Source of the DNA: Rhodobacterales bacterium
Lineage (GTDB): Bacteria; Pseudomonadota; Alphaproteobacteria; Rhodobacterales; Rhodobacteraceae
Direction: 5' to 3'
DNA length: 64,000 nt
Assembly: GCA_038211355.1 (NCBI GenBank)
Contig: JBBQVR010000001.1
Location: 491 to 64,490 of the forward strand
The notes below the pieces were generated by a model. The model made no database searches and was not told the origin of the DNA. It saw nothing but the letters and a program-made list of their open reading frames with translations. Made by a program: the position numbers and the translations under genes. Each line of letters begins with the position of its first letter. Positions within the stretch are counted from its first letter, which is position 1. Of the stretch, positions 6,767-22,045 are shown one piece after another.

Positions 6767-6854
6767 CCCGCCTCTGACCCCCCACTGCTGACCCATTGCG
6801 CGGGGGCGCGGCTGGTGGCATGAGGTTCGCGAAACGCTGGCTTTGGGGGCTACC

Positions 6855-8007: not shown

Positions 8008-10074
8008 TCAGTTCCGAGCGACTGTCCGCAATTCCAGTTGCAGGATGATGGGGCTGGGGCCGGTGTCATCGCCTTCCTCCGTCAGCCCAATTGCGCCGCG
8101 CGTGGTCTGGCCGAAACCAGCCTCGGCCAGCGCGTCGCCAAAGGCGGAACCGCCCAGGCTGCGGGTGGTGTCCAGCGCGTCTTGCGCAAGGTAGCCAAGA
8201 TCCTCAACCGGGCTTTGCGGTTTGGCGGGCGTCACGACGACCAGCATCCGTTCCTGCCCAAGGACCGTATCGGTGATCTTGAAGAGGCCCTTTTTCAATT
8301 CATCCCCCGGCTGCAGGCGGCCCGAAAACCAGTGGCTGATCGCATAATCCGCCGCGATGTAAAGGACGTTCACGTCAACCGGCCAGTCCGTGTTGTTGCG
8401 GGCAAGGACATGCACCTCGTCCTCGGGCAGCAGGGTGGGGACCGGTGCGAAGGGCAAGGCGCGTAGCGTGCGGTCTTCGGGCGTGCGGGTCTGCAGCGCA
8501 ACTGACACATCCAGCCCTTCGGACCCCACGGCAGCGCCGAGTTTCAGCAGGTTCTGCGCGCGGGCGATGGTGGTCAAAGTGTCGGCCAGGGTCGTGGCCA
8601 GCGTCGCGCCATCCTTGTCGGTGGCAAGGACGGACGGGGTGGTGCCAAGGTCTTCGGCCAGACCGGTTGCGGGCAAGACCCAGATTGCATCGGGGCGCGG
8701 GCTGTCGGGCAGGACGGCAAGGCGAAGGTCGGCCTCAACGCTTGCGTCAACGAAGATCAGCCGGGGACCTGCGGCTTCGGTCAGCGCCACCAGTGCCGTC
8801 AGCAGCTTGTCGGCGGGCGCGCTTCCCGGGGCGGGCAGGGCCACCGTCAGGGTGAAATCCAGCGCCTCATCCAGCTTGCGCAGGGTCATGCCCTTGGGCA
8901 GGTCGGCGGGAAGGGTCTTGCCGTCGCGCACCACAGGCCGGCCGGTGGCGGCGAAGGTGCCGACCGTGGTCAGTTCCACATATCCCAGCGCGGCATCGGT
9001 CGGATCGGCGGCACTTGCCAAGACGGCCATCACCGCGCCGGTCGCAAGGCCATGCAGCGACCCCGCGGCGATGGTCAGGCCCGCGTCAGTCACGTCAGCC
9101 TGCCACTGGGCGACGCGGGTGCCGGGGCTGGCCCCGAACACCACCTGATCAAGATCGCCCTCAAACAGCGGGGTAGAGCGGGCGAGGTTCCTGACCGAAT
9201 AGCGGCGCAGCACCTCTTGCCCGATCTGGCCATAGGTCGCACCGGGGTATTCGGCCAGCACCTCCATCAGGGTGAAGGTAAAGACGCCCTGCGGCTTGCG
9301 GCCCGGTTTGCCCTTGGGCAGGTTCTTTTCGGGGGTCACCTCGTTCGTCTGCGCGGCGAAGAAGGCGACAAAGCTGCCCTCACCCGCGCCGGCGTCAAAC
9401 GGTGCTTCGACCCCCTCGCGCGGATCACCCAGCGACCGGGTGGTCACAGCCTCCATCGCCATGGGATCAATCCCCAAAGCCTCGGGCGGGATCTGGCGGG
9501 TGCGCACATCTTCATCTGCCCCATCAAGGCTCCGGGTGGCGGTGCCGGAATGGCAGCTGTCGAACACCGCCCAGACATTGGCCCCCTTGGCGCGCAGGCC
9601 GTCGATCAGGGTGCCGATCTCATCATCGACCAGCGCGTTTTCCACCGTGCCCACGCCGTCTGACCAGGTGCCGATATCGACCGGCAGGAACAGCTCATCC
9701 AAGCCATCCAGTTCGGACGTGGGGTCAAGGGCCGGGGCCTGCGTGCCGTGGCCGGAAAAGTGGAGATAGACGAAATCACCGGGCTGGACCCGCGCAGTCA
9801 GATCGGCAAAGGCCGTGCGGATCGCGGCAAGCGTGGGGGCCTGATACCCCGCAACGCCATCGGTCAGGATGGTCAGATTTTCCGCGGCAAAGGGCACCGG
9901 CGCGCTGGTGGTCAGGTAGCCCGCGACCAGCTGCACATCATTGGCGGGGCCTTTCAGCCACCAGCGCTCCTCCAGGTTCTGGTATTGGTTCGCGCCGATC
10001 AGGATGGCGTGGTTTTCCGCCAACGCCGGAAAGGCGGCCGTCATCACGGCGAGGGTGAGGGCGCTGCGCCACAT
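8008..10074 (-). CDS. Secreted caspase-family (peptidase C14, metacaspase/orthocaspase type) protein with C-terminal DUF4384-like domain
   Basis: Signal peptide (FPALA|E); LKGPANDV, HFSGHG (His), FDSCHSG (Cys); C-terminal RNNTDWPVDVNVLYIAAD...GQERMLVVVT resembles DUF4384. Confidence 0.88.
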   Translation of the reverse strand: MWRSALTLAVMTAAFPALAENHAILIGANQYQNLEERWWLKGPANDVQLVAGYLTTSAPVPFAAENLTILTDGVAGYQAPTLAAIRTAFADLTARVQPGDFVYLHFSGHGTQAPALDPTSELDGLDELFLPVDIGTWSDGVGTVENALVDDEIGTLIDGLRAKGANVWAVFDSCHSGTATRSLDGADEDVRTRQIPPEALGIDPMAMEAVTTRSLGDPREGVEAPFDAGAGEGSFVAFFAAQTNEVTPEKNLPKGKPGRKPQGVFTFTLMEVLAEYPGATYGQIGQEVLRRYSVRNLARSTPLFEGDLDQVVFGASPGTRVAQWQADVTDAGLTIAAGSLHGLATGAVMAVLASAADPTDAALGYVELTTVGTFAATGRPVVRDGKTLPADLPKGMTLRKLDEALDFTLTVALPAPGSAPADKLLTALVALTEAAGPRLIFVDASVEADLRLAVLPDSPRPDAIWVLPATGLAEDLGTTPSVLATDKDGATLATTLADTLTTIARAQNLLKLGAAVGSEGLDVSVALQTRTPEDRTLRALPFAPVPTLLPEDEVHVLARNNTDWPVDVNVLYIAADYAISHWFSGRLQPGDELKKGLFKITDTVLGQERMLVVVTPAKPQSPVEDLGYLAQDALDTTRSLGGSAFGDALAEAGFGQTTRGAIGLTEEGDDTGPSPIILQLELRTVARN

Positions 10075-10697
10075 CAGTTTGTCATCAACGCATAGGTGGC
10101 CGCAGCGGGCCCCTTGTTGTCAACTTTCAGCGTGAAGGTCCCGCCAGCCGCCGGGGTCCAGCCGCAATAGGCGATGTGGCTGATGTCGGTATCGGTGCAG
10201 ACCAGACGGCCCTTGTCGTCAAGCACGGTCAGGTTGACGTTGGTGGCGGCCTTCGCCTCGACGTAAACCTCGGCGTATTCACCGCCGCGAAACTCAATCG
10301 GGGGGTAGGTGTCGTTGCCGCCGTTCGCCAGCGCCCCGATGTTGTAGACCGGGCCAGAGGCGACGCCCTTGGTCGTTTCAACTGCGATATCCTCGATCAG
10401 ACCCAGCAGGGTGGCATCGTCTGCGGCAAGCGCCTCGGCGGTGGCAAGCATCTCTTGCCAAGTGAGGGGGGCGCCCTCGGTGGGCTGGCCACCCAAGGGC
10501 AGACGGTCGCCCGCAACCGGGGCCAGCGATTTGCGCAGCCGGGCGGCCGACAGGATCAAAACGGGGTCAGCCGCCGCGACGCCGGTGTCATAAAGCCGCG
10601 CGGAAAGGGCGGCCACTTGCACGGGCGAGGCCGTCTCAGCCCCGGCGCTGGAGGCAAGGGCCAGGGCAAAGCTGGCGGCAAGCAGGGATCGGCGCAT
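10074..10697 (-). CDS. Secreted hypothetical protein, paralog A (helical N-domain plus PPC-like beta-sandwich)
   Basis: Signal peptide (SAGA|E); stop overlaps caspase start (TGATG); aligns by eye with 19121-19942 and 20066-20755. Confidence 0.8.
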   Translation of the reverse strand: MRRSLLAASFALALASSAGAETASPVQVAALSARLYDTGVAAADPVLILSAARLRKSLAPVAGDRLPLGGQPTEGAPLTWQEMLATAEALAADDATLLGLIEDIAVETTKGVASGPVYNIGALANGGNDTYPPIEFRGGEYAEVYVEAKAATNVNLTVLDDKGRLVCTDTDISHIAYCGWTPAAGGTFTLKVDNKGPAAATYALMTN

Positions 10698-10773
10698 CGG
10701 AAAACTCACACAAGGGATTGTCTTGCCGGTGACCATGCGTCCGGGTGCTTCGGCTGTAAATGCTGGAATTTTT

Positions 10774-10792
10774 CATGACGGGCTTTGTCATG
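10774..10792. promoter_or_regulatory. Putative regulator site 1, CATGAC-N7-GTCATG (minus strand TGACAAA-GCCC-GTCA)
   Basis: Inverted repeat in the divergent intergenic region; same motif at 15758 and 20044. Confidence 0.6.
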
Positions 10793-10851
10793 TGCCAAGG
10801 CTTTGGGCCGCTGTTAGCAAGGCGGCAAGCAGGCAGGAACAAAGGTGCACG

Positions 10852-12195
10852 ATGCAGACGGGACAAAAGGAAAGGCGCGGGCAACGGCGCATCTGGCCAC
10901 AGCGATATCTGGGTGAGGTGCTGGCCGCGCTGGTCGTGATCGTGCTGGTGGCGCTGGTCGGGCCGGCCAATGCCACCCCGCTTGATGATGCGATGGACCG
11001 CGTCTTCACGGTGCGCAGTGCCGACGCCGAGGACAGGTTTCTGGGGTCGGCCTTCCTGTGGGGTGCGGGGGACGTTGCCGTGACCAACGCCCATGTGGTC
11101 GGCACCGCAGGCGAGGTGCGTCTGGTGGGCCGCCACGGGGCAGAGGAAACCGCGCTGGTCATCGCGCGCGATGCGCTGCGCGATGTGGCAGTGATCGCGG
11201 TCAGCGCAAGGTTTGCCGGTGGCCGGGCCGGGCTGGACCTTGTGACCACGTCCCCCGGTCTGGGCGATGAGGTCTTTGCCCTTGGCGCACCGCTTGGGGT
11301 GGAATTCACCCTGACCGAGGGCCGGATTTCCGCCACCGCGCGGCAGGTGGACATCACCGTGCCGTTGCTGATGCTGCAGCATGATGCGGCGGTCAATCCG
11401 GGGTCTTCGGGCGGGCCTCTGGTCGATGCTGACGGGCGGCTTTTGGGGATGAACAGCCAGATCGCCGATGGCAGCCGGATGTTTGTCGGCATCGCCTATG
11501 CCATCGCGGCGCCTGACCTTGCGGCCTTCGTCACCGGCCTGATCGAGGAAACCCTGCCGCCGTTCCCGTCGCTTGGCGTGACCGCGCGACCGGTGGACCG
11601 GCAGGTGGCGGCAGCGCTGGGTGTTGCGGTGGCGGGATTGCTGGTCGACGGGGTGACCGCGGGCGGGCTGGCCGAGGCGGCGGGTCTGCGCGGTGGCGAT
11701 GTGATCGTGGCGGTGGACGGGACTGCGCTGGTGCAACCGGGCGATCTGGCCTTTGCGGTGGAACGGGCGGCTGTGGCGGGTGAAACGCTGATCACCGTGT
11801 TGCGGGGCGGGGCGCAGCTGAACCTGACCGTGTCGCTTTTGGCCGAGGAGGCTGGCCTGCGCCTGCGGCAGGTGTCGGGGGGCATGCCGGAAACGGTGCA
11901 GGCCTACCGGCTGGCAGCCCTTGGCGTGGTGCTGGACGCTGCGGGCCGGGTGACGGCGGTCACCGAAAGCTCGCCCGCCCTGTTCGCCGGGCTGGCGCTG
12001 GGTGACCGCATCCTGACGGTGAACGGCGCAGAGGTGGACCTGTCGGCCTATGAGGTGACCGAGCCGGTGTTGCTGCTGGTGCAGGCCCCGGGCGGTTTGA
12101 CGCGGCACATCCATCTGGACCCCTGGCGCGCGCAAGGCGGGGTGCGGCCTCTGGGCGGGGCGAATGTCCTTGACCCGGACGTGGTGGTGTTCTGA
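10852..12195 (+). CDS. HtrA/DegP-like serine protease with PDZ domain(s)
   Basis: VTNAHVV (His), RDVAVI (Asp), DAAVNPGSSGGPL (Ser); PDZ-like GLRGGDVIVAVDG; N-terminal hydrophobic segment. Start uncertain (10852 or GTG 10918). Confidence 0.88.
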   Translation: MQTGQKERRGQRRIWPQRYLGEVLAALVVIVLVALVGPANATPLDDAMDRVFTVRSADAEDRFLGSAFLWGAGDVAVTNAHVVGTAGEVRLVGRHGAEETALVIARDALRDVAVIAVSARFAGGRAGLDLVTTSPGLGDEVFALGAPLGVEFTLTEGRISATARQVDITVPLLMLQHDAAVNPGSSGGPLVDADGRLLGMNSQIADGSRMFVGIAYAIAAPDLAAFVTGLIEETLPPFPSLGVTARPVDRQVAAALGVAVAGLLVDGVTAGGLAEAAGLRGGDVIVAVDGTALVQPGDLAFAVERAAVAGETLITVLRGGAQLNLTVSLLAEEAGLRLRQVSGGMPETVQAYRLAALGVVLDAAGRVTAVTESSPALFAGLALGDRILTVNGAEVDLSAYEVTEPVLLLVQAPGGLTRHIHLDPWRAQGGVRPLGGANVLDPDVVVF

Positions 12196-12221
12196 ATGAG
12201 GGGCCAAGGGAAGGTGGGGGC

Positions 12222-12926
12222 ATGAACGACCGGATCCTGATCGTCGAAGACGATAGTGAGACTGCCGCCGCCGTGCGTGCGGTGGTCGAGGGGTTGGGCT
12301 GCCACGTCGACCATCACGACACGCTTGAGGCCGGCATCGCCGCTGCCATCGCCACGCCCTACAAGGTCATCGTGCTGGACCGGATGCTGCCGGGCGGCGA
12401 CGGGGTCGAGGCGATGGCACGGTTGCGGGCCGGTGGGTCAACCGCGCTGATCCTGATCCTGTCGGCGCTGGGTCGCGCCGCCAACCGGGTGGAGGGGCTG
12501 GAAAAGGGTGCGGATGACTATCTGCCGAAACCCTTTGAACCCGATGAGTTGCGCGCCCGCGTGCGCGCCCTGTTGCGACGCGGCACGATGCAGGTGCTGG
12601 ACAATGACCTTCTGGCCTTCGGTGATCTGGAAATCCGGCTGAAGGCGCGGACGGTGCATGTCAAACGCGCCCATGTGGCGGTCAGCCCGAAAGAGTTTGA
12701 GCTGTTGACCTATTTTGCCAGCAACGCCGGGCAGATCGTCACCCGGATGCAGCTTTTGGAAAACGTCTGGAACCTGCACTTCGACCCCGGCACCAATGTG
12801 GTTGATGTCCATGTCGGCCGCCTGCGCCGCAAGCTGGAAGAAGCAGGCTCCACCGCGATCCAGACCGCGCGGGGGGAGGGGTATGTCTTTGCCCCGCTTG
12901 CCCCGACTTTGGGGCCCGCCGGGTGA
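12222..12926 (+). CDS. OmpR-family response regulator (CusR/CopR-like C-terminus)
   Basis: ILIVEDD, VIVLD (phosphoacceptor), DDYLPKPF; wHTH LLENVWNLHFDPGTNVVDVHVGRLRRKL. Confidence 0.93.
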   Translation: MNDRILIVEDDSETAAAVRAVVEGLGCHVDHHDTLEAGIAAAIATPYKVIVLDRMLPGGDGVEAMARLRAGGSTALILILSALGRAANRVEGLEKGADDYLPKPFEPDELRARVRALLRRGTMQVLDNDLLAFGDLEIRLKARTVHVKRAHVAVSPKEFELLTYFASNAGQIVTRMQLLENVWNLHFDPGTNVVDVHVGRLRRKLEEAGSTAIQTARGEGYVFAPLAPTLGPAG

Positions 12927-14284
12927 CACAGGCCCGCCCCCTGGCGGCGCGGGCCACGTTGCGGCTGGCGGCGGTGATGGCCCTTGCGGTAACGGTTCTG
13001 TCGCTTCTGGCGATGGGGTTGCAATATCGGCTGGTCGAGGTGCGGCTGATGCAAGCGCAGCGCGCGCTTTTGTCAGCCGACCTGGACGGGTTCGCAGCCC
13101 TTTATGACCAGCGCCGGATCATCGCCCTGCGGCAGGCCATCGACTACCGTGCGGCGGCGGCGACGGGCGAAGAGATGCTGCTGTTGCTGGACCGTAGCGG
13201 CGCCAAGCTGGCTGGCACGCGCGCCGGCTGGCCGGCCGGCCTTACCGCCGAGGGGGATGCCTTCACCGTCGAACCCGCAACGGTGTTTGTGGAAGGCGGC
13301 ACACGCTGGCTGGTTGTGGCGCGCAAACTGCCGGGGGGGTTTCCGCTGCTTGTCGCACGATCGCTTGACCCGGTTGATGACACGCTGGCGGCCCTGCGGC
13401 GCGGGATGCTGGGACTGCTCGCCGCGCTGCTGGTGGCGGGGGGTGGGGTCGGCTGGCTGGCGGCGCGGTCGGTCATGGGCCGGATCGGGCGGGTGAATGA
13501 TCTGGCCGACCGCGTGGCCGAAGGGGCGCTGGACGCGCGGCTGCCGGGGGCGCGGTCTGACGATGAGTTCGGCCTGTTGGAAACCCACGTCCACGCCATG
13601 CTGGACCGTATTCAGAACCTGAACCGCGCCACGCACCGCCTGTCCGACACCATCGCGCATGAATTGCGCACACCGCTGAACCGGATGCTGCAAAAGCTGG
13701 GCCGGATCGAGGATCACGAAGAGGTCACGGCCGAGTTGAAGGCCGAGATGCGGCAAGCGATCCGCATGTTTGACAGCCTTCTGGACATCAGCCGCGCCGA
13801 GGCTGACGCAGGCACCGGCGGCGGTCTGGTGCCGGTTGACCTGTCTGCCGTGGCATCGGAAGTGTGGGAGTTGTATGAGCCCTTGGCCGAGGACAAGGGG
13901 CTTGCCTGCACCTCTGACATTGCCCCCGGCCTGCAGATCCTGGGTGACCGCAACCTGATTGCGCAGCTTTTGGCCAACCTTCTGGACAACGCCATCAAGT
14001 ATTGCGCGGCGGGTGACCTGCTTACCCTGACGCTGGTCGTCTTTGGCGACCGGCACCTGATGCGGGTATCGGACACCGGCCCCGGCCTGCCCGCCGAGAT
14101 GCGCGGCGAGGCGTTTGAGCGTTTCGTCCGGGCCGAGCGTGACCGGTCCACCCCCGGCCATGGCCTTGGTCTTGCCCTGGTGCGGGCCATTGCCGCCCGG
14201 CATGGCGCGCGGCTGGTGCTGCCTGACGGTGCTGGCGGATTCACGCTTGAAATCCACTGGCCCAGGCTGCAGCAATCGGACTGA
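12923..14284 (+). CDS. Sensor histidine kinase (2 TM, periplasmic domain, HAMP)
   Basis: H-box IAHELRTPL, N-box LLDNAIKY, G1 VSDTGPG, G2 GHGLGL; GTGA overlap with the regulator. Confidence 0.93.
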   Translation: MTQARPLAARATLRLAAVMALAVTVLSLLAMGLQYRLVEVRLMQAQRALLSADLDGFAALYDQRRIIALRQAIDYRAAAATGEEMLLLLDRSGAKLAGTRAGWPAGLTAEGDAFTVEPATVFVEGGTRWLVVARKLPGGFPLLVARSLDPVDDTLAALRRGMLGLLAALLVAGGGVGWLAARSVMGRIGRVNDLADRVAEGALDARLPGARSDDEFGLLETHVHAMLDRIQNLNRATHRLSDTIAHELRTPLNRMLQKLGRIEDHEEVTAELKAEMRQAIRMFDSLLDISRAEADAGTGGGLVPVDLSAVASEVWELYEPLAEDKGLACTSDIAPGLQILGDRNLIAQLLANLLDNAIKYCAAGDLLTLTLVVFGDRHLMRVSDTGPGLPAEMRGEAFERFVRAERDRSTPGHGLGLALVRAIAARHGARLVLPDGAGGFTLEIHWPRLQQSD

Positions 14285-14305
14285 CCCTCTCATTCCGGAC
14301 CCTGC

Positions 14306-15748
14306 ATGAAACGCGCTGTCCTTCCCCTGCTGTTGCTTCTGGGCTGCGCGCCGTGGAATTCGCCGCTGAACCAGCCGTTGCAGGGGGAAAACGCCAGTCT
14401 GGTTGAACCGGCGGTCGTGGGCGATGGAGAGCTTTACATCGGTCTGGCCTTTTCAGGCGGCGGGTTCCGGGCCACGTCCTTCGCCTACGGTATGCTTGAG
14501 GAATTGCGCGCGGCGGGGGTGGAAACCGGCACGCCGAACGGCCTGCTTGATCAGGTGCGGCTGGTGTCGGGTGTCTCTGGCGGGTCGGTGATGGCGGCGC
14601 AGTTTGGCTTGCGTGGGCCAGAGGGGCTGACCGGGTTCCGGGAGAAGTTCCTTCTGACCGACGGTGAGGCCTATATGGTCACCTCAGGCCTGAACCCCTT
14701 GACCATCGCCAAGGGCGTGGCGGGCGGGGTGAACGGGCGCGATACCTTTGGCCGCTATCTGGATGATACGCTGTTCAACGGCGCCACCTTCGGCGATCTG
14801 CGCAAATCCTCACGCATCAAGACCTGGATCAACGCCACCGACATGGCGAACAACACGCCGTTTCTGTTCAGCCCCGAGACGTTTGATGCGCTGTGTTCCG
14901 ACCTGTCGCAGGTGCGCCTGTCCGAGGCGGTGGCTGCCAGCGCCGCCTTCCCGCTTGTCTTCACCCCCATCGTGCTGAAGGCGCATCAGGGCAAGTGCAA
15001 CTACGTTGAGCCCGACTGGCTGACAGCCGCGCGCTATAACCCCGAGGCGACGGCCGCAATGCGCGCCCATGCCCGCGCGCTGGAAAGCTATACCAACCCA
15101 GATGAGGTGAAGTTCGTCAAACTGCTGGATGGCGGGATCACCGACAACTTCGGCACGACAGGTCTTGCGGTAGAGCGCGCCCGCGCGCAGGTGCCCTATG
15201 CGCCGCTGACGGCGGAAGAGGCGGTCAAGCTGAAACGGATGCTGTTCCTTGTCGCCAACGCCGGGGTTGAGGAAGACTATGACTGGACGCAGCAAGTGGC
15301 CGGTCCCGGTGGGGTCAACCTTGCGATGTCGATTGCCACCAGCGCCATGTCGGCGGCGTCACGGTCTGGCTATGACTCCATGCGGGGTGAACTGCGCGTG
15401 TGGGAGGCAGAGCTGATCGACTGGCGCTGCGCCTTGCCGATGGTTGAAGTGCGCCGGTTGCGCGGATCGACCGAAGGGTGGGACTGCAAGGATGTAAAGC
15501 TGTTCGTGGGTGAGGCCAGCTTTGCCAGCCTGCCCCCGGCGCTGCGCGACAAGCTGAACAATGTGCCGACCCGTCTGAAACTGCCGCCTGCTGAGGTGGA
15601 CATGGTGATTGAAGCCGGGCGATTGGCCACCCGCATGACGCCGGAGTTCAACGGTTTCCTCGCCTCGCTGGCTGGAAATAATGTGGACGGGCGGATCGTG
15701 GACGGCATCGCCGCAGGCGGGCGGCGGGTGATGCCCTTGGGGAATTGA
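14306..15748 (+). CDS. Patatin-like phospholipase, predicted lipoprotein
   Basis: Lipobox LLG|C; SGGGFRA oxyanion loop, GVSGG nucleophile, LLDGG Asp motif. Confidence 0.88.
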   Translation: MKRAVLPLLLLLGCAPWNSPLNQPLQGENASLVEPAVVGDGELYIGLAFSGGGFRATSFAYGMLEELRAAGVETGTPNGLLDQVRLVSGVSGGSVMAAQFGLRGPEGLTGFREKFLLTDGEAYMVTSGLNPLTIAKGVAGGVNGRDTFGRYLDDTLFNGATFGDLRKSSRIKTWINATDMANNTPFLFSPETFDALCSDLSQVRLSEAVAASAAFPLVFTPIVLKAHQGKCNYVEPDWLTAARYNPEATAAMRAHARALESYTNPDEVKFVKLLDGGITDNFGTTGLAVERARAQVPYAPLTAEEAVKLKRMLFLVANAGVEEDYDWTQQVAGPGGVNLAMSIATSAMSAASRSGYDSMRGELRVWEAELIDWRCALPMVEVRRLRGSTEGWDCKDVKLFVGEASFASLPPALRDKLNNVPTRLKLPPAEVDMVIEAGRLATRMTPEFNGFLASLAGNNVDGRIVDGIAAGGRRVMPLGN

Positions 15749-15757
15749 CGGGTCAGG

Positions 15758-15772
15758 TGACAAATCCGGTTA
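15758..15772. promoter_or_regulatory. Putative regulator site 3, TGACAAA-TCCG-GTTA
   Basis: About 53 bp upstream of the caspase-2 start; one mismatch to the palindrome of sites 1 and 2. Confidence 0.5.
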
Positions 15773-15824
15773 GCTGCAGGAAGCCGCTTGTTCCATGCGG
15801 GCCCTTGGCTATCTTGGGCAGGTC

Positions 15825-17801
15825 ATGCGCAAGCCTCTGTCTGCCCTTGCGGGCCTTCTGGCCCTGATGATCGCCCCGCCCGCGCTGGCCGAGGTGCGGG
15901 CAGTGCTGGTCGGAGTCAGCGATTATCTGGTGCTGGATGCCGATCTGAAAGGCCCCGCAAACGACGTGCGCCTGATGGCCGAGACGCTTGCCTTGCGCGG
16001 CGTTGATCCCGGCGCGATGACCGTGCTGACGGCTGATCCTGCAGGCCTGCCACCCGGCGTGAAAACGGCAGCCCCGCTGCGGGCCGCGATCCTTGCGGCG
16101 ATGGCGGCGGTGGCCGATGCGTCAGCCCCCGGCGATACGGTGGTTTTCTACTTCTCCGGCCACGGCGCGCAGGCCCCGGACATGAGCGGCGACGAAGGCG
16201 GTGGCTATGATGAGATATTGCTGCCCGCCGATGCTGCCGGGTGGAGAGGCGCCATCGGCGCGGTGGAAAACGCGATTCTGGATGATGAGCTGCAGGTCTG
16301 GGCGCAAGGGATGCTGTCGCGCGGCGTGCAGGTGGTGGGGCTGATCGACGCCTGCCATTCAGCCACGGGCTTTCGCGCGGCTGGGGGCGCGGGCGTGGCG
16401 CGGGTGATTGATGCGGCGGCGCTGGGCATCCCTGCGGATGTGGTGCCGGTCACGGGCAACCCCGTGCCGCCGCTGACGGGAAGTTTCGTGTTCCTCTACT
16501 CCTCTCAATCCGATCAGCGGTCGTTTGAATACCCGATGGCGGATGGCACCTGGCAGGGAGAATTCACCTTGCGGCTGGCGCAAACCTTGCAGACCGCGCC
16601 GCAGGCCAGCTGGGCGCAGGTGCTTGCCGCCACGACCGAAGGCATGGTGCAAGGCCCCGCGCGGCAGATGCCGGATGGCGAGGGGACATTGTTGCAAGCC
16701 CCGGTTTTCGGGACCGGGCAAGCCGCGCTGCGGGTGCCGGTGGCGGGGGGCAAACTGGCGGCGGGCCTGTTTCAGGGGCTGGCGGCGGGGGCAGAGGTCG
16801 CGGTTTATGCCGATGCTGCGGGGGGGGAGGCGCTGGCTGTCCTTACCCTTGGGACAGTAAGCGCGCGTGAGGCGGTTCTGATCGGCGCACTCCCCGACGC
16901 GGCGCTTTGGGCCGAGGTGGTCAGCGCCCCGCCCCCCGCGCCGCTGGTGCTGGCGGCCCCGGTGCGGGCCGATAGGGCAGACGGGTTTGAGTATGCGGCC
17001 TGGGAAGCGGCCTTGCGTGATGGAGCCGCCACCGGCCCTTCGCCCGACCTTGTGCCGATCCTGACCGGTGGCGCGGTGGCGCTGGCCGGGGCGGACGGGG
17101 TGCTGGACCCTGAGGGGCCGGGATCTACCCCGCGGATCAGGCTGCGCGAGGGCGAGGCAGAGGCGGATGCCGTGGCGCGGGTGCTGGAGGCTGCCGCCCA
17201 TGGCCTTGGCCTGCGCGCGGTCCTTGCGGGGGCGGCGGGGCGGTCGCTGACCGGCAAGGCTGCGCTCTCCATGGTGGTTGAACGCCGGGCGGCCGGGCCG
17301 GACTGTGGCGCGGTGGGCCGGGGCGTGTCGCATGACCCGGCCCAGGGGGTTGCCCCCTGTGACCAGCTTTGGCTGACGCTGACCAACACCGGCGGCAAGG
17401 CGCAGGATGTCAGCGTGCTGTACTTCGCGGCGGATTTCAGCGTGGCCCCGATCTGGCCCGCGCAGAACCTTGCCAACCGCCTGGCACCGGGGGAAAGCAC
17501 CCGCGTCGGCCTGATGATCGAGGCGGACAGCACGGCAGGACTGGAGGAAATCTGGGTTCTGGCCGTTCCGGCAGACCCCGACACCCCCCGCGTGGACCTG
17601 ACGCGCCTTGCCACGCCGGAAACCGCGCGCGACCTTGGGGGCGCAGACCCCATGACGCAGTGGCTGGAAAGCCGCCTGCCCAAGGACGGTGGCACGACGC
17701 GCGGCTTTTCCCTGAAACCCGCCGTGTTGACGATGATCCGTCAGATGGTGCGCCTGACCCCCCCAGAGTTCTTCCCCGCCGATCCCTTGATGGAGAATTG
17801 A
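15825..17801 (+). CDS. Second secreted caspase-family (C14, metacaspase type) protein with C-terminal DUF4384-like domain
   Basis: Signal peptide (PPALA|E); LKGPANDV, YFSGHG, IDACHS; C-terminal TNTGGKAQDVSVLYFAAD...GLEEIWVLAV parallels the first caspase. Confidence 0.88.
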   Translation: MRKPLSALAGLLALMIAPPALAEVRAVLVGVSDYLVLDADLKGPANDVRLMAETLALRGVDPGAMTVLTADPAGLPPGVKTAAPLRAAILAAMAAVADASAPGDTVVFYFSGHGAQAPDMSGDEGGGYDEILLPADAAGWRGAIGAVENAILDDELQVWAQGMLSRGVQVVGLIDACHSATGFRAAGGAGVARVIDAAALGIPADVVPVTGNPVPPLTGSFVFLYSSQSDQRSFEYPMADGTWQGEFTLRLAQTLQTAPQASWAQVLAATTEGMVQGPARQMPDGEGTLLQAPVFGTGQAALRVPVAGGKLAAGLFQGLAAGAEVAVYADAAGGEALAVLTLGTVSAREAVLIGALPDAALWAEVVSAPPPAPLVLAAPVRADRADGFEYAAWEAALRDGAATGPSPDLVPILTGGAVALAGADGVLDPEGPGSTPRIRLREGEAEADAVARVLEAAAHGLGLRAVLAGAAGRSLTGKAALSMVVERRAAGPDCGAVGRGVSHDPAQGVAPCDQLWLTLTNTGGKAQDVSVLYFAADFSVAPIWPAQNLANRLAPGESTRVGLMIEADSTAGLEEIWVLAVPADPDTPRVDLTRLATPETARDLGGADPMTQWLESRLPKDGGTTRGFSLKPAVLTMIRQMVRLTPPEFFPADPLMEN

Positions 17802-17802
17802 G

Positions 17803-18861
17803 ATGACGCTTTCCCATTTGCCCAAGGCCGCGTTTCTTGCGGTGCTGCTCGCCTCAACCGCGCTGGCGGAAGAGGGGCCGGGCTTTGCTGTCAAGGCCGG
17901 CGGGGTGACGGTCTCACCCTTCGCCTACGCAAAGTCCGGGGCCAAGGCGGCGCGGGCGGCCACGGCCGAGGCGGCAGGCGCAAAGGTCATCGGCGGCGAG
18001 GTTGCGGCCGAGGGGGCCTGGCCCTGGCAGGTGGCACTGCTGGTCGGCGGGGCAGAGGTCAGCTCTGACAGCCAGTTCTGTGGCGGGTCGCTGGTCATGG
18101 ACCGCTGGGTGCTTACGGCGGCGCATTGCATCCATATGGACCAGGGGGATGGCAGCTTTGCCGATCTGGCACCGCAGGACCTGTCGATCCTGGTTGGAAC
18201 GAACGCGCTGGTGCCGGGCAGGGGGGATCTGATCCCGGTCGCGGCGATCTTTCGCCACCCGTCCTACGATGGCGCCAAGTTCGACTTTGACCTAGCGCTG
18301 GTGCAACTGGCGCGCGCGCCGAATGTGCCCTACGCGCTGATCGAGGTGCCGGACGCCGAGTTTGGCGGTCTTTTGAACCAGCAGGGGGTGACGACGATCG
18401 TCACTGGCTGGGGTCTGCAGGAAGGGGCGACCCCGTCAACCGAATTGCGGCAGGCCGAGATTCAGGTGCTGGACCGTGACCTCTGCAACGCCTCGATGCT
18501 GGAGGCGCGGGCGGAAGATGCGGCCGGCGGGTTTTCCTATGCGGCGCAGACGCTGGGCCTTGGCGAGGACGATGCCTTTGCGCTGTGGGATCAGATGGTG
18601 GCGCGCGCGCCGATGCCGGTCAGCGAGAACATGATCTGTTCCGGCACATTCGAGGGCGGCAAGACCAGCTGCAACGGCGACAGCGGCGGGCCTTTGGTGG
18701 TTCCCCTGGACGACGGCAGCTACATTCAGGCCGGGATCGTCAGCTGGGGGCTGAGCGCAAGTTCGGGTCAGGGCTGCGAGGAGACGGCGCTGTTTTCCGC
18801 CTATACCGACATTTCGAAGTTCGTGCCCTGGCTGAACGAGGTGATCGCGGCGAACCCCTGA
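17803..18861 (+). CDS. Secreted chymotrypsin-family (S1A) serine protease zymogen
   Basis: Signal peptide (TALA|E), propeptide ending AK|VIGG, WPWQVAL, CGGSL, TAAHC, DLALVQL, GDSGGP. Confidence 0.92.
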   Translation: MTLSHLPKAAFLAVLLASTALAEEGPGFAVKAGGVTVSPFAYAKSGAKAARAATAEAAGAKVIGGEVAAEGAWPWQVALLVGGAEVSSDSQFCGGSLVMDRWVLTAAHCIHMDQGDGSFADLAPQDLSILVGTNALVPGRGDLIPVAAIFRHPSYDGAKFDFDLALVQLARAPNVPYALIEVPDAEFGGLLNQQGVTTIVTGWGLQEGATPSTELRQAEIQVLDRDLCNASMLEARAEDAAGGFSYAAQTLGLGEDDAFALWDQMVARAPMPVSENMICSGTFEGGKTSCNGDSGGPLVVPLDDGSYIQAGIVSWGLSASSGQGCEETALFSAYTDISKFVPWLNEVIAANP

Positions 18862-18874
18862 GCGGTCGCCCTAT

Positions 18875-18907
18875 CCTGGCGCCGACCTGGCCCTGACCTG
18901 GCGCTGA
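18875..18907. repeat. Imperfect 11-bp tandem repeat x3
   Basis: CCTGGCGCCGA CCTGGCCCTGA CCTGGCGCTGA. Confidence 0.6.
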
Positions 18908-18950
18908 CCTTGCGGCGCCGCATTTTGCGGCACGGCCTTGCCCCCCAGCC

Positions 18951-19108
18951 GCGGCCAAAGGGGCCGCAGCCGGGGCCCCGTGGGGGCGTTTCGCCCCCAA
19001 AGGCTGCAAGCACGCTTGCAGCCTTTCCCCCGAGGATATTTGGCGAAGAGGAAGGGCAGGAAGACGGGATCTTCCTGCAGAACGGCCCGCAGCTTTGGGC
19101 TGCGAGCC
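18951..19108. repeat. Mosaic of hairpins (REP/BIME-like) between convergent genes
   Basis: GCGGCC-aaagg-GGCCGC; GGGGGCG-ttt-CGCCCCC; AAAGGCTGCAAGC-ac-GCTTGCAGCCTTT; CGCAGC-tttgg-GCTGCG. Confidence 0.6.
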
Positions 19109-19120
19109 GGGTTTGCGGTC

Positions 19121-19942
19121 TTAGTTCGTCATCAGGTGGTAGCTGTTGCGCACGCTGCCCATGTTCTGGACAGTGACGTAGAAATAGCCATCCCAAGCGG
19201 GGGTAAAGTCGCAGTAAAGCGAGTCTGACCAGCTGACATCATAGCAAAAGACGTTGCCGTTTTCATCGGTGATCGCCACGTCAAGATCGGTGTCGCCGTC
19301 GCCCACCACCGCAATTTCGCCGTAGGAATTGCCGTAGAACGGGATTTCCCAGACATCGGTCTGGCCCGCGGGCAGGCGGGACAGCCACTGCACCGCGCCG
19401 CCGATCCGCCCGCGGGAGCCTTCGGCCATCGCATCCTCGATCAGGCCAAGGATCGCCTCATCTCCGGCGGCAAGCTCGGTCGCCTTGGCGAACATCGCTT
19501 CTGCGGTCACGGGGGCGTCGGCGGCGCCTTCCTCTTCTGATGTGGCGGTAAAAAAGCTGGCCTTGGCGGCAGGGCGCATCCCGTCAGCCATCATCGGGGC
19601 CGGAGCGGCAGGGGCTGCGGAAGGGGCAACCTTTTTGCGCAAGGATTCCTGATCCCCCTCGGCGAAGGCGATGGTGGCAGGGTCGAGTGCCGCAGCCTCA
19701 GCCGTGGTGACGCTGACCGAAGCCGCGAGTTTGGCCGCGGCCAGCACGGTCAGCGCATCGCCTTGCGCAAGGCCCACGTCATAGAGGTCCTGGGCCAGGC
19801 CCATGGTCGTGGCACCCCCGGCAGCGGTGGCGGTGGCCGCGGGGTCGATGTTGGTGCCCGATTTGTCTTGTGCAAAGGCGGGAATGGCCAGCGCGACCAG
19901 TGTGGTCGTGGCCAGCGCGCGCGAAAGGGATTTCAGCGTCAT
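19121..19942 (-). CDS. Secreted hypothetical protein, paralog B (helical N-domain plus PPC-like beta-sandwich)
   Basis: Signal peptide (PAFA|Q); GDGDTDLDVAITDENGNVFC...YCDFTP...YHLMTN. Confidence 0.8.
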   Translation of the reverse strand: MTLKSLSRALATTTLVALAIPAFAQDKSGTNIDPAATATAAGGATTMGLAQDLYDVGLAQGDALTVLAAAKLAASVSVTTAEAAALDPATIAFAEGDQESLRKKVAPSAAPAAPAPMMADGMRPAAKASFFTATSEEEGAADAPVTAEAMFAKATELAAGDEAILGLIEDAMAEGSRGRIGGAVQWLSRLPAGQTDVWEIPFYGNSYGEIAVVGDGDTDLDVAITDENGNVFCYDVSWSDSLYCDFTPAWDGYFYVTVQNMGSVRNSYHLMTN

Positions 19943-20041
19943 GTCTGATCCTGTGAGATGGGAGCCCGGAACAGGGGCCCGGAATGGGAACCACGTGGAT
20001 CAACCTTGGCAGGCAGCCCGCCCTTTGAGAAGAGAGCATGG

Positions 20042-20060
20042 CGTGACAAATACCGTCATG
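20042..20060. promoter_or_regulatory. Putative regulator site 2, CGTGACAAA-TACC-GTCATG
   Basis: About 100 bp upstream of paralog B; may also act as the terminator hairpin of paralog C. Confidence 0.55.
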
Positions 20061-20065
20061 CCACC

Positions 20066-20755
20066 CTAGTTGCCGATCAGGCGGTAGCTGTTTTGCAGGC
20101 TGCCGGGGTTGTGGATGGTGGCGGTGAAAAAGTCGTTGCGGGCCGGGGTCAGCCGGCACAGGGCCGGATCAACCGACGGCGGCGTGGCGCAGACGATGTT
20201 GCCCGCCGCATCTTGCAGGGTCAGGGACAAGGGGGTGTCGCCATCGCCGATCACGCCGATCTCGGCTGTGACCTCACCAAAGAGGGGGAGGCGCCATGTA
20301 TCGGTCTGGCCGGGGCCAAGGTCGGCCTTCGCCTCGGTCGCGGTTTCGGTGGGTCCGCGCGGCAACTGTGCGTCAAGGTCATAGGCCAGGTCCTGCAAGG
20401 CGGGATCGTCGCCGACCAGGTTGCGGACGATGGCCAAGGCTGCCTCGCTGGCCGGGTCGGGGGCGGCGGTGCGGCCGGTGGGGGCGTCAGGGACCGCATC
20501 ACCGCTGGTCGTGCGCGCCCAGGCCGGGGCGGGGCGCAGGGTGACGCCGCGCGCCAGGCGAATGGCCACCAGCATGGGCAGCACCTCGCCCGAAGTCAGG
20601 GCCTGTTGCCAGGTGCGCTGCGCCAGGATCAGGCGTTGGGCCGTGCCGGGCGTGCCACCGGGGGTGGCGGACAGGTTTGCCGCCTCAGCCAGCGCGGCGG
20701 GGGCGGCAAGAAGCGTCACAAGAAGGGCGGCACCAATGGCTGGGGAGCGGATCAT
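20066..20755 (-). CDS. Secreted hypothetical protein, paralog C (helical N-domain plus PPC-like beta-sandwich)
   Basis: Signal peptide from ATG 20755 (AALA|E); GDGDTPLSLTLQDAAGNIVC...LCRLTP...YRLIGN. Confidence 0.78.
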   Translation of the reverse strand: MIRSPAIGAALLVTLLAAPAALAEAANLSATPGGTPGTAQRLILAQRTWQQALTSGEVLPMLVAIRLARGVTLRPAPAWARTTSGDAVPDAPTGRTAAPDPASEAALAIVRNLVGDDPALQDLAYDLDAQLPRGPTETATEAKADLGPGQTDTWRLPLFGEVTAEIGVIGDGDTPLSLTLQDAAGNIVCATPPSVDPALCRLTPARNDFFTATIHNPGSLQNSYRLIGN

Positions 20756-20870: not shown

Positions 20871-22019
20871 ATGCGCGACATTCTGGACCGGCTTTTGGCC
20901 TTCGACACGGTCAGCTTCAAGCCAAACATGGGGCTGATGCTTTATGTGAAGGACTTGCTGGAGGGGGCAGGCATTGCCGTGACCCTGATCCCGGATGCCG
21001 GGGGCGGGAAGGCGAACCTCTTTGCCACCGTGGGGCCACAGGGGCAGGGTGGGGTCATGCTCTCAGGCCATACCGATGTGGTGCCGGTAGAGGGGCAGAC
21101 CTGGACCAAGCCCCCCTTCGCGATGACCGAGGCTGACGGCCGCATCTACGGGCGGGGGGCGGCAGACATGAAGGGCTTCGTTGCCTGTGCGGTGGCGGCG
21201 ATGCTTGACGCCGCAAACCGGCCGTTGCGCGTGCCGCTGCATCTGGCGCTGTCTTATGACGAAGAGATTGGCTGCATGGGGGTGCGCAGTCTGATCGACA
21301 TGCTGGATGCGGCCCCGGTGCGGCCAAGGATGTGCATCGTGGGGGAACCCACGGGGATGCAGGTCGCGACCGGCCACAAGGGCAAGGTCGCGCTGCGGGC
21401 AACCTGCGTGGGGCGTGAGGGGCATTCGGCGCTGGCCCCGCTGGCCTTGAATGCGCTGCATCTGGCGGGGGATTTTCTGGTGGCGGTCAGGGGTTTGCAG
21501 GCTGAGGTGGCGGCGACGGGCCTGCGCGATGGTGACTATGACGTGCCCTATACCACGCTGCATGTCGGCAAGATGTCGGGCGGGGTGCAGGTCAATATCG
21601 TGCCCAACCACGCGAGCCTGGACTTTGAGATCCGGTCGCTGGCGGATGAGGATGTGGCGGGCCTGATCACCCGGCTGGAGGCGGCGGCGGAAGGGATCGT
21701 GGCACCACTTCGGGCAGAGTTTCCAGAGGCCGCGATCAGGGTGGAGCGCTTGTGGAATTACCCCGGCCTTGGCACGCCATCGGATGCGGGGGTGGTCAAC
21801 TTCGTCAAGGGGCTGACGGGGGCGAACGGGACGATCAAGGTGGCTTTCGGGACGGAAGGGGGCCTCTTTGACCAGCGGCTTGGCATTCCGACGGTGATCT
21901 GCGGGCCGGGGTCAATGGCGCAGGGGCACAAGCCGGATGAGTTCGTGACCGTGGAGCAGCTGGAGCGGTGCGAGGCGATGCTGGGCGCATTGATCCAGCG
22001 GCTGGAGGCGGGGTTTTAG
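20871..22019 (+). CDS. argE: Acetylornithine deacetylase (M20)
   Basis: LSGHTDVVP, YGRGAADMKG, SYDEEIGC, IVGEPT, AHKPDEF-like terminal motif. Confidence 0.85.
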   Translation: MRDILDRLLAFDTVSFKPNMGLMLYVKDLLEGAGIAVTLIPDAGGGKANLFATVGPQGQGGVMLSGHTDVVPVEGQTWTKPPFAMTEADGRIYGRGAADMKGFVACAVAAMLDAANRPLRVPLHLALSYDEEIGCMGVRSLIDMLDAAPVRPRMCIVGEPTGMQVATGHKGKVALRATCVGREGHSALAPLALNALHLAGDFLVAVRGLQAEVAATGLRDGDYDVPYTTLHVGKMSGGVQVNIVPNHASLDFEIRSLADEDVAGLITRLEAAAEGIVAPLRAEFPEAAIRVERLWNYPGLGTPSDAGVVNFVKGLTGANGTIKVAFGTEGGLFDQRLGIPTVICGPGSMAQGHKPDEFVTVEQLERCEAMLGALIQRLEAGF

Positions 22020-22020
22020 T

Positions 22021-22045
22021 GCCCACCCCACCGTCCGGGGTGGGC
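22021..22045 (+). terminator. Hairpin directly after the argE stop
   Basis: GCCCACCCC-accgtcc-GGGGTGGGC. Confidence 0.6.

What the first reader, a model, noticed from the sequence alone, without database searches (positions are those of the whole stretch)
10074..20755. Three paralogous secreted proteins with a basic-Gly junction and a strictly conserved C-terminus
Seen: paralogs A (10074-10697), B (19121-19942) and C (20066-20755) share a common layout. After the signal peptide comes a helical N-domain (LSARLYDTGV..DPVLILSAARL / LAQDLYDVGL..DALTVLAAAKL / LAQRTWQQAL..EVLPMLVAIRL). A linker ends D-x(3-4)-L-x(2)-L-x(2)-D-x(4-6)-[KR]G (ETTK|G, EGSR|G, QLPR|G). Then follows a ~95-aa beta domain with a Cys pair (LVC..AYC, VFC..LYC, IVC..ALC), ending Y-x-L-(M/I)-(T/G)-N-stop. 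Inference: the beta domain resembles a PPC (pre-peptidase C-terminal) module. The N-domain may be a prodomain removed at K/R-G by the caspases, releasing a small disulfide-bonded ligand, inhibitor or signal for the kinase. The invariant C-terminal Asn could be a PDZ ligand for the HtrA-like protease.
Basis: partly seen in the sequence, partly recalled or inferred. Interest (0 to 1): 0.75.

Follow-up and report, generated by a model that had tools for sequence, protein, structure and literature searches.

The report
Exported partner proteins of bacterial metacaspases
Three related genes encode small exported proteins with a four-helix head joined to a beta-sandwich of the kind usually attached to secreted proteases; they belong to a large unnamed family. 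Family members often lie next to exported caspase-like proteases and are probably cut or bound by them, but this has not been shown.

Summary

They belong to an unnamed family of about 2,500 clusters at 50% identity:
- 134 of the 150 best representatives end exactly in Asn (..Y-x-L-x-T-N-stop).
- The Cys pair is about 96% conserved.
- A basic residue followed by Gly sits at the domain junction in 65% of representatives.

AlphaFold models (pLDDT 94 and 86) show a four-helix N-domain, a short linker holding K/R-G, and an eight-strand sandwich. That sandwich matches PPC and collagen-binding domains, so the PPC idea holds at fold level.

The three genes are not equivalent:
- A is translationally coupled to metacaspase 1. 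All 10 A-clade genes examined sit beside that protease.
- B carries the cluster's shared DNA box.
- C belongs to an older stand-alone clade next to an M20 peptidase gene. That clade also occurs in genomes with no caspase and there lacks the basic-Gly junction.

Cleavage at K/R-G is plausible but unproven, and there is evidence against it. The PDZ-ligand idea is disfavoured.

This scan has already met the same family in other genomes.

The parts
10074..10697 (-). Paralog A (207 aa): exported two-domain protein of the A clade, the partner of metacaspase 1
   Evidence: Translation. A 100% identical 207-aa record exists. AF2 pLDDT 93.8. All 10 A-clade rows are adjacent to casp1.
10638..10697 (-). 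Signal peptide of A (residues 1-20, ..SSAGA|E)
   Evidence: Read from the sequence. Modelled as helix 2-19. No signal-peptide predictor was available.
10365..10370 (-). Junction K110-G111 of A, in the linker between helix 4 and strand 1; candidate processing site
   Evidence: Coordinates. Linker 107-116 lies in the lowest-pLDDT block of the mature protein (83). [KR]G is present in 65% of representatives.
10077..10364 (-). PPC-like beta-sandwich of A (residues 112-207) with Cys167/Cys178 and the terminal ..YALMTN
   Evidence: Eight strands between 117 and 206. Foldseek hits to 3afg, 3jqw, 1nqd and 5sv5.
8008..10074 (-). Metacaspase 1 (casp1, 688 aa, exported); its start overlaps A's stop (TGATG)
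   Evidence: Pfam C14 E 6e-17. Yca1 4f6o E 6e-16, with SGHG and DSCHSG motifs. Overlap seen in the sequence.
19121..19942 (-). Paralog B (273 aa), B clade, at the end of the cassette, convergent with the trypsin gene
   Evidence: Translation. AF2 pLDDT 85.7, with a disordered insert at about residues 91-120. Tree.
19409..19414 (-). Junction R177-G178 of B
   Evidence: Coordinates. Residues 171-180 show a pLDDT dip to 81.
20066..20755 (-). Paralog C (229 aa), C clade: stand-alone type, divergent from the M20 peptidase gene
   Evidence: Translation. Tree. The same GFO-fam-M20 arrangement occurs in relatives without the cassette.
20354..20359 (-). R133-G134 of C; not conserved within the C clade (PPG, FAP, AAP, PRS, PDA in relatives)
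10776..10790 (-). Box TGACAAA-N4-GTCA in the divergent A / HtrA promoter region
   Evidence: Exact match. The same box sits at the same place in loci L005, L006, L016, L020 and L023.
20044..20058 (+). The same box upstream of B, between the stop of C and the start of B
   Evidence: Exact match. The box also lies upstream of B-type and unlinked family genes in L004, L005, L006, L018, L021 and L022.
15758..15772 (+). The same box between the patatin gene and casp2
   Evidence: Also present in L006 and L013.
10852..12195 (+). HtrA-like serine protease with PDZ domains (probable ATG at 10852; the ORF is open from 10723)
   Evidence: Pfam Trypsin_2 and PDZ. Sequence.
12222..14284 (+). OmpR-type response regulator (12222-12926) and HAMP sensor kinase (12923-14284)
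   Evidence: Pfam. NCBIfam matches below the cut-offs.
14306..18861 (+). Patatin-like lipase (14306-15748), metacaspase 2 (15795-17801) and S1 trypsin-like protease (17803-18861)
   Evidence: Pfam.

Best explanation
A, B and C belong to an undescribed family of Sec-exported proteins. Each has a four-helix N-domain, a short linker that usually reads [S/T]-[K/R]-G, and a PPC-like beta-sandwich. The sandwich carries a conserved Cys pair, presumably a disulfide, and its last strand ends in a free ..T-N carboxy-terminus.

A and B are components of a co-regulated envelope cassette: metacaspase 1, HtrA, RR-HK, patatin, metacaspase 2 and trypsin. A is made together with metacaspase 1 from overlapping genes.

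The most likely mechanism is inferred, not shown. The N-domain would be a carrier or docking module. The Arg/Lys-specific metacaspase would cut after the conserved basic residue of the linker and separate the N-domain from its cargo. The cargo is the beta-sandwich in A and B, or a short Cys/aromatic-rich peptide in rare N-domain-only relatives.

C is the descendant of an older stand-alone copy beside the M20 peptidase gene. It is outside the regulon and is probably not processed in this way.
For: Shown:
- Paralogy and a large family.
- Two-domain fold with the basic-Gly pair in the linker, at the local pLDDT minimum.
- PPC-like fold.
- A's stop overlaps the casp1 start as TGATG.
- The A-casp1 pair is conserved in 9 other Paracoccaceae genera, always beside an RR-HK and/or patatin gene of the cassette.
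- A family gene directly flanks a casp1 homolog in 5 further genomes from other families (G168, G613, G771, G891, G749), and N-domain-only genes lie in a casp1 operon in G167.
- All 10 A-clade rows are casp1-adjacent.
- The same DNA box lies upstream of A/HtrA, casp2 and B, and upstream of family genes in orthologous and even unlinked loci.
- casp1 aligns with Yca1, AtMC4 and TbMCA2 and keeps the His/Cys dyad, the 'ND' motif and the D-x-C acidic S1 residues. All characterised metacaspases cut after Arg/Lys (established knowledge).

Supporting the cleavage idea:
- Basic-Gly is present in 97 of 149 representatives, and any basic residue in about 75%.
- C-clade genes from genomes with no C14 (G026, G106) lack the motif, and they lack the box.
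- Six N-domain-only ORFs in four genomes (three in tandem in G167, one each in G033, G048 and G749) all end with K or R followed by a variable tail of 12 to 21 residues. One tail reads GCIWAWQCYWNGWCEYAWLCY. No beta-domain remnant follows where the flanks were searched for one (G033, G048).
- casp1 orthologs carry two conserved T-R-[G/S/A] sites in their C-terminal linkers.
Against: - No cleavage has been observed.
- A divergent RR-HK-linked subgroup keeps R-G-R-x-L-G-P-A-[Y/F] although two of its complete genomes have no C14 peptidase. The motif may therefore be structural, or cut by another enzyme.
- The high pTM values (0.84 and 0.79) mean the two domains pack together, so the linker may not be freely accessible.
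- Translational coupling in a 1:1 gene pair is also typical of inhibitor or chaperone pairs.
- The N-domain-only genes are rare, and the Cys/Trp tail was found in one genus only among 150.
- About 25-35% of family representatives lack the motif.
Confidence: 0.42

Rival explanations
1. A-type proteins are dedicated periplasmic inhibitors or regulators of the co-encoded metacaspase. The basic-Gly linker would act as a bait or reactive-site loop that occupies the S1 pocket. This would keep the protease silent until the two-component system or HtrA removes the partner.
For: - Translationally coupled 1:1 gene pair, conserved across families.
- Compact two-domain model that could hold the loop rigid (pTM 0.84).
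- P1 matches metacaspase specificity.
- Periplasmic beta-sandwich inhibitors such as PliG appear among the fold matches.
- Loss of the motif where no caspase exists fits this reading as well as the substrate reading.
Against: - The Cys pair braces strands 5 and 6 of the sandwich, not the linker, unlike canonical inhibitors.
- Several unlinked paralogs occur per genome (B; L045, L048, L049), and N-domain-only forms with hypervariable tails look more like cargo diversity than like an inhibitor.
- No similarity to any known inhibitor family was found.
Confidence: 0.25
2. The proteins are uncleaved accessory binding modules. They would be a PPC or collagen-binding-type domain supplied in trans to the exported proteases, for example to bind Ca2+, cell-wall or polymer substrates. 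The basic-Gly pair and the terminal Asn would be purely structural.
For: - PPC and collagen-binding domains are binding modules of secreted proteases (fold match).
- The acidic G-D-G-D-x-D-L-D and D-E-x-G motifs and the invariant free C-terminus suggest a metal or ligand site.
- The R-G motif persists in caspase-less genomes of the divergent subgroup.
- Earlier notes of this scan report exported C14 proteases fused to PPC-like domains in other phyla. This was not checked here.
Against: - It does not explain why the basic residue is kept at the end of N-domain-only proteins that have no sandwich.
- It does not explain why the motif is lost in the C clade.
Confidence: 0.2
3. The invariant C-terminal Asn is a PDZ ligand that activates or recruits the HtrA-like protease.
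For: An HtrA with two PDZ-type matches is encoded divergently from A. The C-terminus is extremely conserved.
Against: - The last six residues form the final strand of the sandwich at pLDDT about 95, not a free tail.
- The ..TN ending is conserved in loci where no HtrA-like gene was found in the flanks (L010, L011, L044-L050, and the C clade in L007-L009).
- From general knowledge, HtrA, DegS and DegP PDZ domains bind hydrophobic C-terminal residues.
Confidence: 0.05

Closest known systems
PPC (bacterial pre-peptidase C-terminal domain, PF04151) and the collagen-binding domains of ColG/ColH
   Same: An eight-strand beta-sandwich of the same topology (Foldseek E 2e-7 to 1e-4, TM about 0.65-0.77 on the target). 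Sub-threshold Pfam matches in 10 of 131 members. The D-x-D-L-D / D-x-x-G sequence pattern. A genomic link to secreted proteases.
   Different: This is a stand-alone protein, not a C-terminal appendage of a peptidase. It is preceded by a four-helix domain with no Pfam family or informative PDB match. It has a conserved Cys pair and an invariant ..T-N-COOH ending. Scores are below the Pfam threshold for A, B and C.
Plant PROPEP1 / metacaspase-4 / PEPR signalling, and GRI / metacaspase-9 / PRK5 (from memory: Hander et al. 2019; Wrzaczek et al. 2015)
   Same: A metacaspase-type protease cutting after Arg/Lys would release the C-terminal part of a precursor outside the cytoplasm, in a system that also encodes a membrane sensor kinase.
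   Different: There is no sequence relationship. Here cleavage and sensing are both hypothetical, the cargo is mostly a folded 95-aa domain, and the kinase is a bacterial histidine kinase.
Bacterial gasdermin and caspase-like protease gene pairs (from memory: Johnson et al. 2022)
   Same: A substrate gene immediately upstream of a clan-CD protease gene. The protease would remove an inhibitory part of the substrate.
   Different: Gasdermin systems are cytoplasmic and act in phage defence. Here every component is exported, the fold is unrelated, and no pore-forming domain is evident.
Operon-encoded protease inhibitors (staphostatin-staphopain, AprI/Inh-serralysin, ecotin)
   Same: A small beta-rich periplasmic or co-encoded partner of a protease. 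A P1 residue matching the protease's specificity sits on a loop.
   Different: No sequence or specific fold match. The disulfide does not brace the candidate loop. Multiple unlinked paralogs and cargo-swapped variants exist.
CpxP and the divergent cpxP / cpxRA arrangement with DegP
   Same: A small helical periplasmic protein gene lies divergent from a two-component operon, and an HtrA/DegP-type protease is involved.
   Different: No LTXXQ motifs and no Pfam CpxP hit. There is an extra beta-sandwich, and the gene is coupled to a metacaspase.

Membership tests
PPC (PF04151) | Sequence match at or above Pfam's gathering score (25.9 bits) | tested here: not met
   B's beta domain scores 17.4 bits, E 0.008. 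A and C have no hit. 10 of 131 relatives match at E <= 0.01, best 1e-6.
PPC (PF04151) | Beta-sandwich/jelly-roll fold of solved PPC and collagen-binding domains | tested here: met
   Foldseek hits: 3afg E 2.1e-7, 3jqw 2.1e-5, 1nqd 5.2e-5, 5sv5 8.4e-5, with rmsd 2.0-3.0 A over 91-97 columns for 1nqj_A, 1nqd_B and 5sv5.
PPC (PF04151) | C-terminal appendage of a secreted peptidase precursor | tested here: not met
   A, B and C are separate genes with their own signal peptides and no peptidase domain.
Substrates or pro-proteins of metacaspases (C14B) | Cleavage after Arg/Lys by the cognate metacaspase | not testable with these tools
   Only indirect evidence: a conserved basic residue in the linker, a metacaspase-type casp1 and gene adjacency.
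Standard-mechanism or bait-type protease inhibitors | Exposed reactive-site loop with a matching P1 residue, held rigid, usually by a nearby disulfide | tested here: inconclusive
   The P1 K/R lies in the linker, but the Cys pair lies in strands 5 and 6 of the sandwich, 57 and 68 residues away in sequence. No coordinates were available to measure contacts.
PDZ ligands of HtrA/DegS-type proteases | Free, flexible C-terminal tail ending in a hydrophobic residue; co-occurrence with the PDZ protease | tested here: not met
   The terminal residue is Asn. The last strand runs 200-206 in A and 266-272 in B at high pLDDT. The ending is conserved in loci where no HtrA-like gene was found in the flanks.
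CpxP/Spy-type periplasmic regulators | Pfam LTXXQ/CpxP family match | tested here: not met
   No Pfam hit for the N-domain even at E <= 1.
   No family at E <= 1 for the C-terminal 370-380 residues of casp1 and casp2.

The most novel reading that the evidence does not exclude
The four-helix N-domain is a dedicated exported leader or carrier recognised by periplasmic metacaspases. These would cut after its terminal basic residue and release interchangeable cargos: a PPC-like sandwich or short Cys/Trp-rich peptides. The cargos would act as signals or effectors read by the co-encoded histidine kinase or ECF sigma system. This would be a bacterial counterpart of plant PROPEP-metacaspase-receptor-kinase signalling.
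Probability: 0.2. Interest if true: 0.85.

Novelty: new variant of a known kind. Interest (0 to 1): 0.62.

Why it matters
Bacterial metacaspases and orthocaspases are widespread, yet to my knowledge almost none has a known physiological substrate or partner, and those acting outside the cytoplasm are unstudied.

This family supplies a concrete, conserved, co-regulated candidate partner with a defined candidate cleavage site. The function of an exported metacaspase therefore becomes directly testable with two purified proteins and one point mutant.

If cleavage is confirmed, it would reveal a leader-cargo processing system in the cell envelope, coupled to two-component or ECF signalling.

Even if cleavage is not confirmed, the family is large enough to deserve a name: a four-helix domain plus a remote PPC domain with an invariant free ..TN terminus, in about 2,500 clusters at 50% identity.

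Tried and rejected
1. C-terminal Asn shared with other cluster proteins. In this window casp1 (..ARN), casp2 (..MEN) and patatin (..LGN) also end in Asn, which I first took for a cluster-wide signal. Their orthologs end in D, P, R, G or E, so it is not conserved. Rejected, apart from a weak residual excess.

2. Sequence search of the PDB with family profiles gave only designed helical repeats for the Ala/Leu-rich N-domain, which is uninformative. It also gave non-significant Tk-SP hits.

3. The search for related loci with the 131-sequence alignment failed because no conserved 7-10 column stretch exists. I used the genome search plus fetch from genomes instead.

4. A strict rule that the basic-Gly junction occurs only with caspases was rejected. 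Two complete genomes of a divergent subgroup keep R-G-R but have no C14.

5. Conservation of the Cys/Trp-rich tail of the N-domain-only gene of G048: no second example in 150 genera. That tail is a singleton.

6. Literature searches for periplasmic metacaspase, orthocaspase signal peptide, and PPC with caspase found nothing on this family.

8. DUF4384 in the caspases and any Pfam family for the N-domain: none found.

Full report
**What is there**

On the minus strand lie three ORFs: A at 10074-10697, B at 19121-19942 and C at 20066-20755.
- Pairwise BLASTP gives A/B E 2e-25, B/C 3e-28 and A/C 2e-10.
- A profile search of the whole assembly (3.57 Mb, 265 contigs, 92.8% complete) finds exactly these three copies.
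- Each begins with a classic Sec signal (..AGA|E, ..AFA|Q, ..ALA|E), read from the sequence.
- None matches any Pfam or NCBIfam model at E <= 0.01.

**Surroundings**

The neighbouring genes, by Pfam, solved structures and translations, are:
- casp1, an exported metacaspase-type C14 peptidase, at 8008-10074 on the minus strand.
- An HtrA-like protease with PDZ domains.
- An OmpR-type regulator and a HAMP histidine kinase.
- A patatin-like lipase with a lipoprotein-type signal sequence (lipobox-like LLLLGC).
- A second C14 peptidase, casp2.
- An S1 trypsin-like protease.
- B and C follow on the opposite strand, with an M20 peptidase gene divergent from C.

A's stop codon overlaps the casp1 start as TGATG. 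A and casp1 are therefore very likely translated as a coupled pair.

**The family**

A profile of A, B and C finds 2,514 cluster representatives at E <= 1e-3 among 1.84 billion. Of these, 1,240 reach 1e-10 and 147 reach 1e-30.
- Of the 150 best, 134 end exactly with Asn, nearly all as Y-x-L-x-T-N-stop.
- In 131 full-length relatives, nearly invariant positions include both Cys (126 and 127 of 131), D226, P248, N260, G262 and Y268, in B numbering.
- The junction reads R (68) or K (36) followed by G (105).
- On an HMM alignment of 149 representatives the pair is RG in 60 and KG in 37 (65%). Another 15 have R or K followed by a different residue.

**Fold**

- AlphaFold2 with a 71-sequence alignment gives A a pLDDT of 93.8 and pTM of 0.84. 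It has four helices (25-41, 45-56, 80-91, 95-106), a linker at 107-116 that contains K110-G111 and lies in the lowest-confidence block of the mature protein, and eight strands from 117 to 206.
- B has the same plan (pLDDT 85.7, pTM 0.79). A low-confidence, coil-modelled Ala/Pro insert (about residues 91-120) lies between helices 2 and 3, and there is a pLDDT dip at R177-G178.
- Foldseek against the PDB ranks the C-terminal jelly roll of Tk-SP subtilase first (3afg, E 2e-7). ColH and ColG collagen-binding domains, a B. anthracis collagenase PPC domain (5sv5), GOLD domains, the RetS sensor domain and the lysozyme inhibitor PliG follow.
- Pfam PPC is the only recurrent sub-threshold family. B scores E 0.008, and 10 of 131 relatives match, best 1e-6.
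- One database names a close homolog 'Peptidase C-terminal archaeal/bacterial domain-containing protein'.

The beta domain is therefore a remote PPC-type sandwich. The helical domain has no informative match.

**The three paralogs are not equivalent**

In a sample of one genome from each of 150 other genera of the same family (Paracoccaceae by the names on hits), 20 carry the family and 82 carry some C14 peptidase. I fetched about 20 kb around the hits. A maximum-likelihood tree resolves three clades.

1. A clade (support 96/87).
   - All 10 members lie directly beside a casp1 ortholog.
   - Eight of the ten lie divergent from RR-HK, usually preceded by HtrA and often followed by patatin, casp2 and trypsin. 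L011 has patatin there instead, and L010 has RR-HK without HtrA.
2. B clade (support 95/88).
   - Members sit at the far end of that cassette or elsewhere in the genome.
3. C clade (support 92/80).
   - Members lie between a GFO-type oxidoreductase gene and the M20/SelD genes.
   - This includes two complete genomes (G026, G106) with no C14 peptidase at all.

In the window, GFO (6843-7856) and C/M20 flank the cassette. The block 8008-19942 therefore looks inserted into the ancestral GFO-C-M20 arrangement.

**Regulon**

The box TGACAAA-N4-GT(C/T)A has three exact matches in the 64-kb window. All three are in intergenic regions of this cluster: A/HtrA, patatin/casp2 and upstream of B. With up to one mismatch there are 4 matches, against 0.76 expected by chance.
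- The same box precedes family genes in orthologous loci and in unlinked ones: L004, L018, L021, the N-domain-only gene in L036, and, with one mismatch, the one in L052.
- No box precedes C or the C-clade genes of L007-L009 and L012.

**Beyond the family**

The family is rare. It was found in 8 of 400 genomes sampled across the phylum and in 6 of 400 across the class. Where it occurs it is usually multi-copy and linked to casp1:
- A family gene directly flanks a casp1 homolog in G168, G613, G771, G891 and G749.
- In G749 the order on one strand is N-domain-only gene, casp1, family gene, family gene, RR, HK.
- In G167 three tandem N-domain-only genes sit in an operon with an ECF sigma factor, a casp1 homolog (40% identity) and a TPR-CHAT protease.

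**Evidence bearing on cleavage at K/R-G**

For:
- casp1 aligns with yeast Yca1 (E 6e-16), AtMC4 and TbMCA2. It keeps SGHG, D-S-C-H-S-G, the 'ND' motif and the DG-x-DE acidic cluster. Metacaspases cut after Arg/Lys (established knowledge).
- The basic residue sits in the inter-domain linker.
- C-clade proteins from caspase-less genomes read FAP or AAP there, and other C-clade members read PPG, PRS or PDA. C's own 'PRG' is thus an exception within its clade.
- Six N-domain-only ORFs in four genomes all stop 12 to 21 residues after a basic residue at the same profile position. Their tails are variable, aromatic or Cys-rich. No beta-domain remnant follows in the two loci searched for one (G033, G048).
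- casp1 orthologs carry two conserved T-R-[G/S/A] sites around a variable C-terminal segment.

Against:
- A divergent RR-HK-linked subgroup (L039-L041) keeps R-G-R-x-L-G-P-A-[Y/F]. Two of its complete genomes have no C14.
- The two domains are predicted to pack tightly.
- N-domain-only genes are rare, and one tail is a singleton among 150 genera.
- Nothing experimental could be consulted.

I therefore rate processing by the metacaspases as the single most likely mechanism, at about 0.4. An inhibitor or regulator role (0.25) and an uncleaved accessory binding module (0.2) are serious rivals.

**The C-terminal Asn**

Its invariance as the very last residue argues that the free carboxylate itself is functional, perhaps in a metal, ligand or interface contact. 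This is inference.
- It is part of the last beta strand.
- It is conserved in loci where no HtrA-like gene was found in the flanks.
- The PDZ-ligand idea is therefore disfavoured.
- The Asn endings of casp1, casp2 and patatin in this window are not conserved in their orthologs.

**Relation to earlier work in this scan**

Earlier notes on other genomes (e1-4327640, e1-4200963, e1-4327639) already described this family as exported PPC-fold partners of metacaspases sharing a control box. My independent tests agree. They add:
- the A/B/C clade split;
- the caspase-free C clade, which lacks the junction motif;
- the N-domain-only cargo variants;
- the counter-example subgroup;
- the rejection of the PDZ idea.

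**Verdict**

This is a real, conserved and uncharacterised protein family. It is a new variant of a known kind, a PPC-type module recruited as a stand-alone two-domain partner of exported metacaspases.

Noticed in passing
L052 about 9779-10201 (+) (G048:C9); L051 9136-9513 (-) (= L036, G033:C26); L042 9279-10722 (-) (G167:C11); L050 6618-7106 (-) (G749:C10): ORFs consisting of the family's N-domain only. Each ends with K or R plus a short variable tail, for example ..YRG-GCIWAWQCYWNGWCEYAWLCY and ..GSRR-LPICARNGFCF. G167 has three tandem copies with different tails. This looks like a leader-plus-cargo layout.
   Followed up: partly
window 10776-10790, 15758-15772, 20044-20058: A shared box TGACAAA-N4-GT(C/T)A lies in three intergenic regions of the cluster. 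It is conserved upstream of family genes in related genomes, including unlinked ones, and is absent upstream of C.
   Followed up: partly
window 8008-19942 versus loci L008, L009, L012: In relatives, GFO oxidoreductase, a C-type family gene and M20/SelD are adjacent. In the window, the nine genes from casp1 to B sit between GFO and C, as if inserted. No integrase or flanking repeat was looked for.
   Followed up: no
window 8008-10074 (-), C-terminal 80 residues of casp1: Two T-R-[G/S/A] sites (..DALDTTRS.. and ..GFGQTTRGA..) flank a variable segment. They are conserved in the 14 full-length casp1 orthologs aligned, from several families (a 15th is truncated), and are candidate autoprocessing sites. 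casp2 has a similar ..GGTTRGF.. site.
   Followed up: partly
window: C-termini of casp1 (8011), casp2 (17798) and patatin (15745): These three cluster proteins also end in Asn here, but their orthologs do not consistently do so (N in about 3 of 9 casp1 orthologs and 3 of 6 patatin orthologs). This is probably chance or shared ancestry.
   Followed up: yes
L043 9045-11141 (+) (G456:C2): A 698-aa exported protein made of five tandem copies of the family's beta domain, with no helical domain.
   Followed up: no
L039-L041 (G456, G182, G524): A divergent subgroup with the junction R-G-R-x-L-G-P-A-[Y/F] lies directly downstream of an RR-HK pair. Two of these genomes have no C14 peptidase.
   Followed up: partly
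L037 4284-5140 (-) (G168:C56): The family gene next to a casp1 homolog is split into two overlapping ORFs, covering profile positions 6-98 and 120-231. This is either a frameshift or a pseudogene.
   Followed up: no
L042 2414-13864 (-) (G167:C11): One operon-like block holds a CHASE2 protein, three N-domain-only genes, an ECF sigma factor, a possible anti-sigma factor, a casp1 homolog and a TPR-CHAT protease. Here the signalling module is an ECF system instead of a two-component system.
   Followed up: partly
window 21968-24553 (+): An 861-aa fusion of a pyridine-nucleotide disulphide oxidoreductase domain with an AIR-synthase/SelD-type domain. It is conserved next to the M20 gene in relatives.
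   Followed up: no
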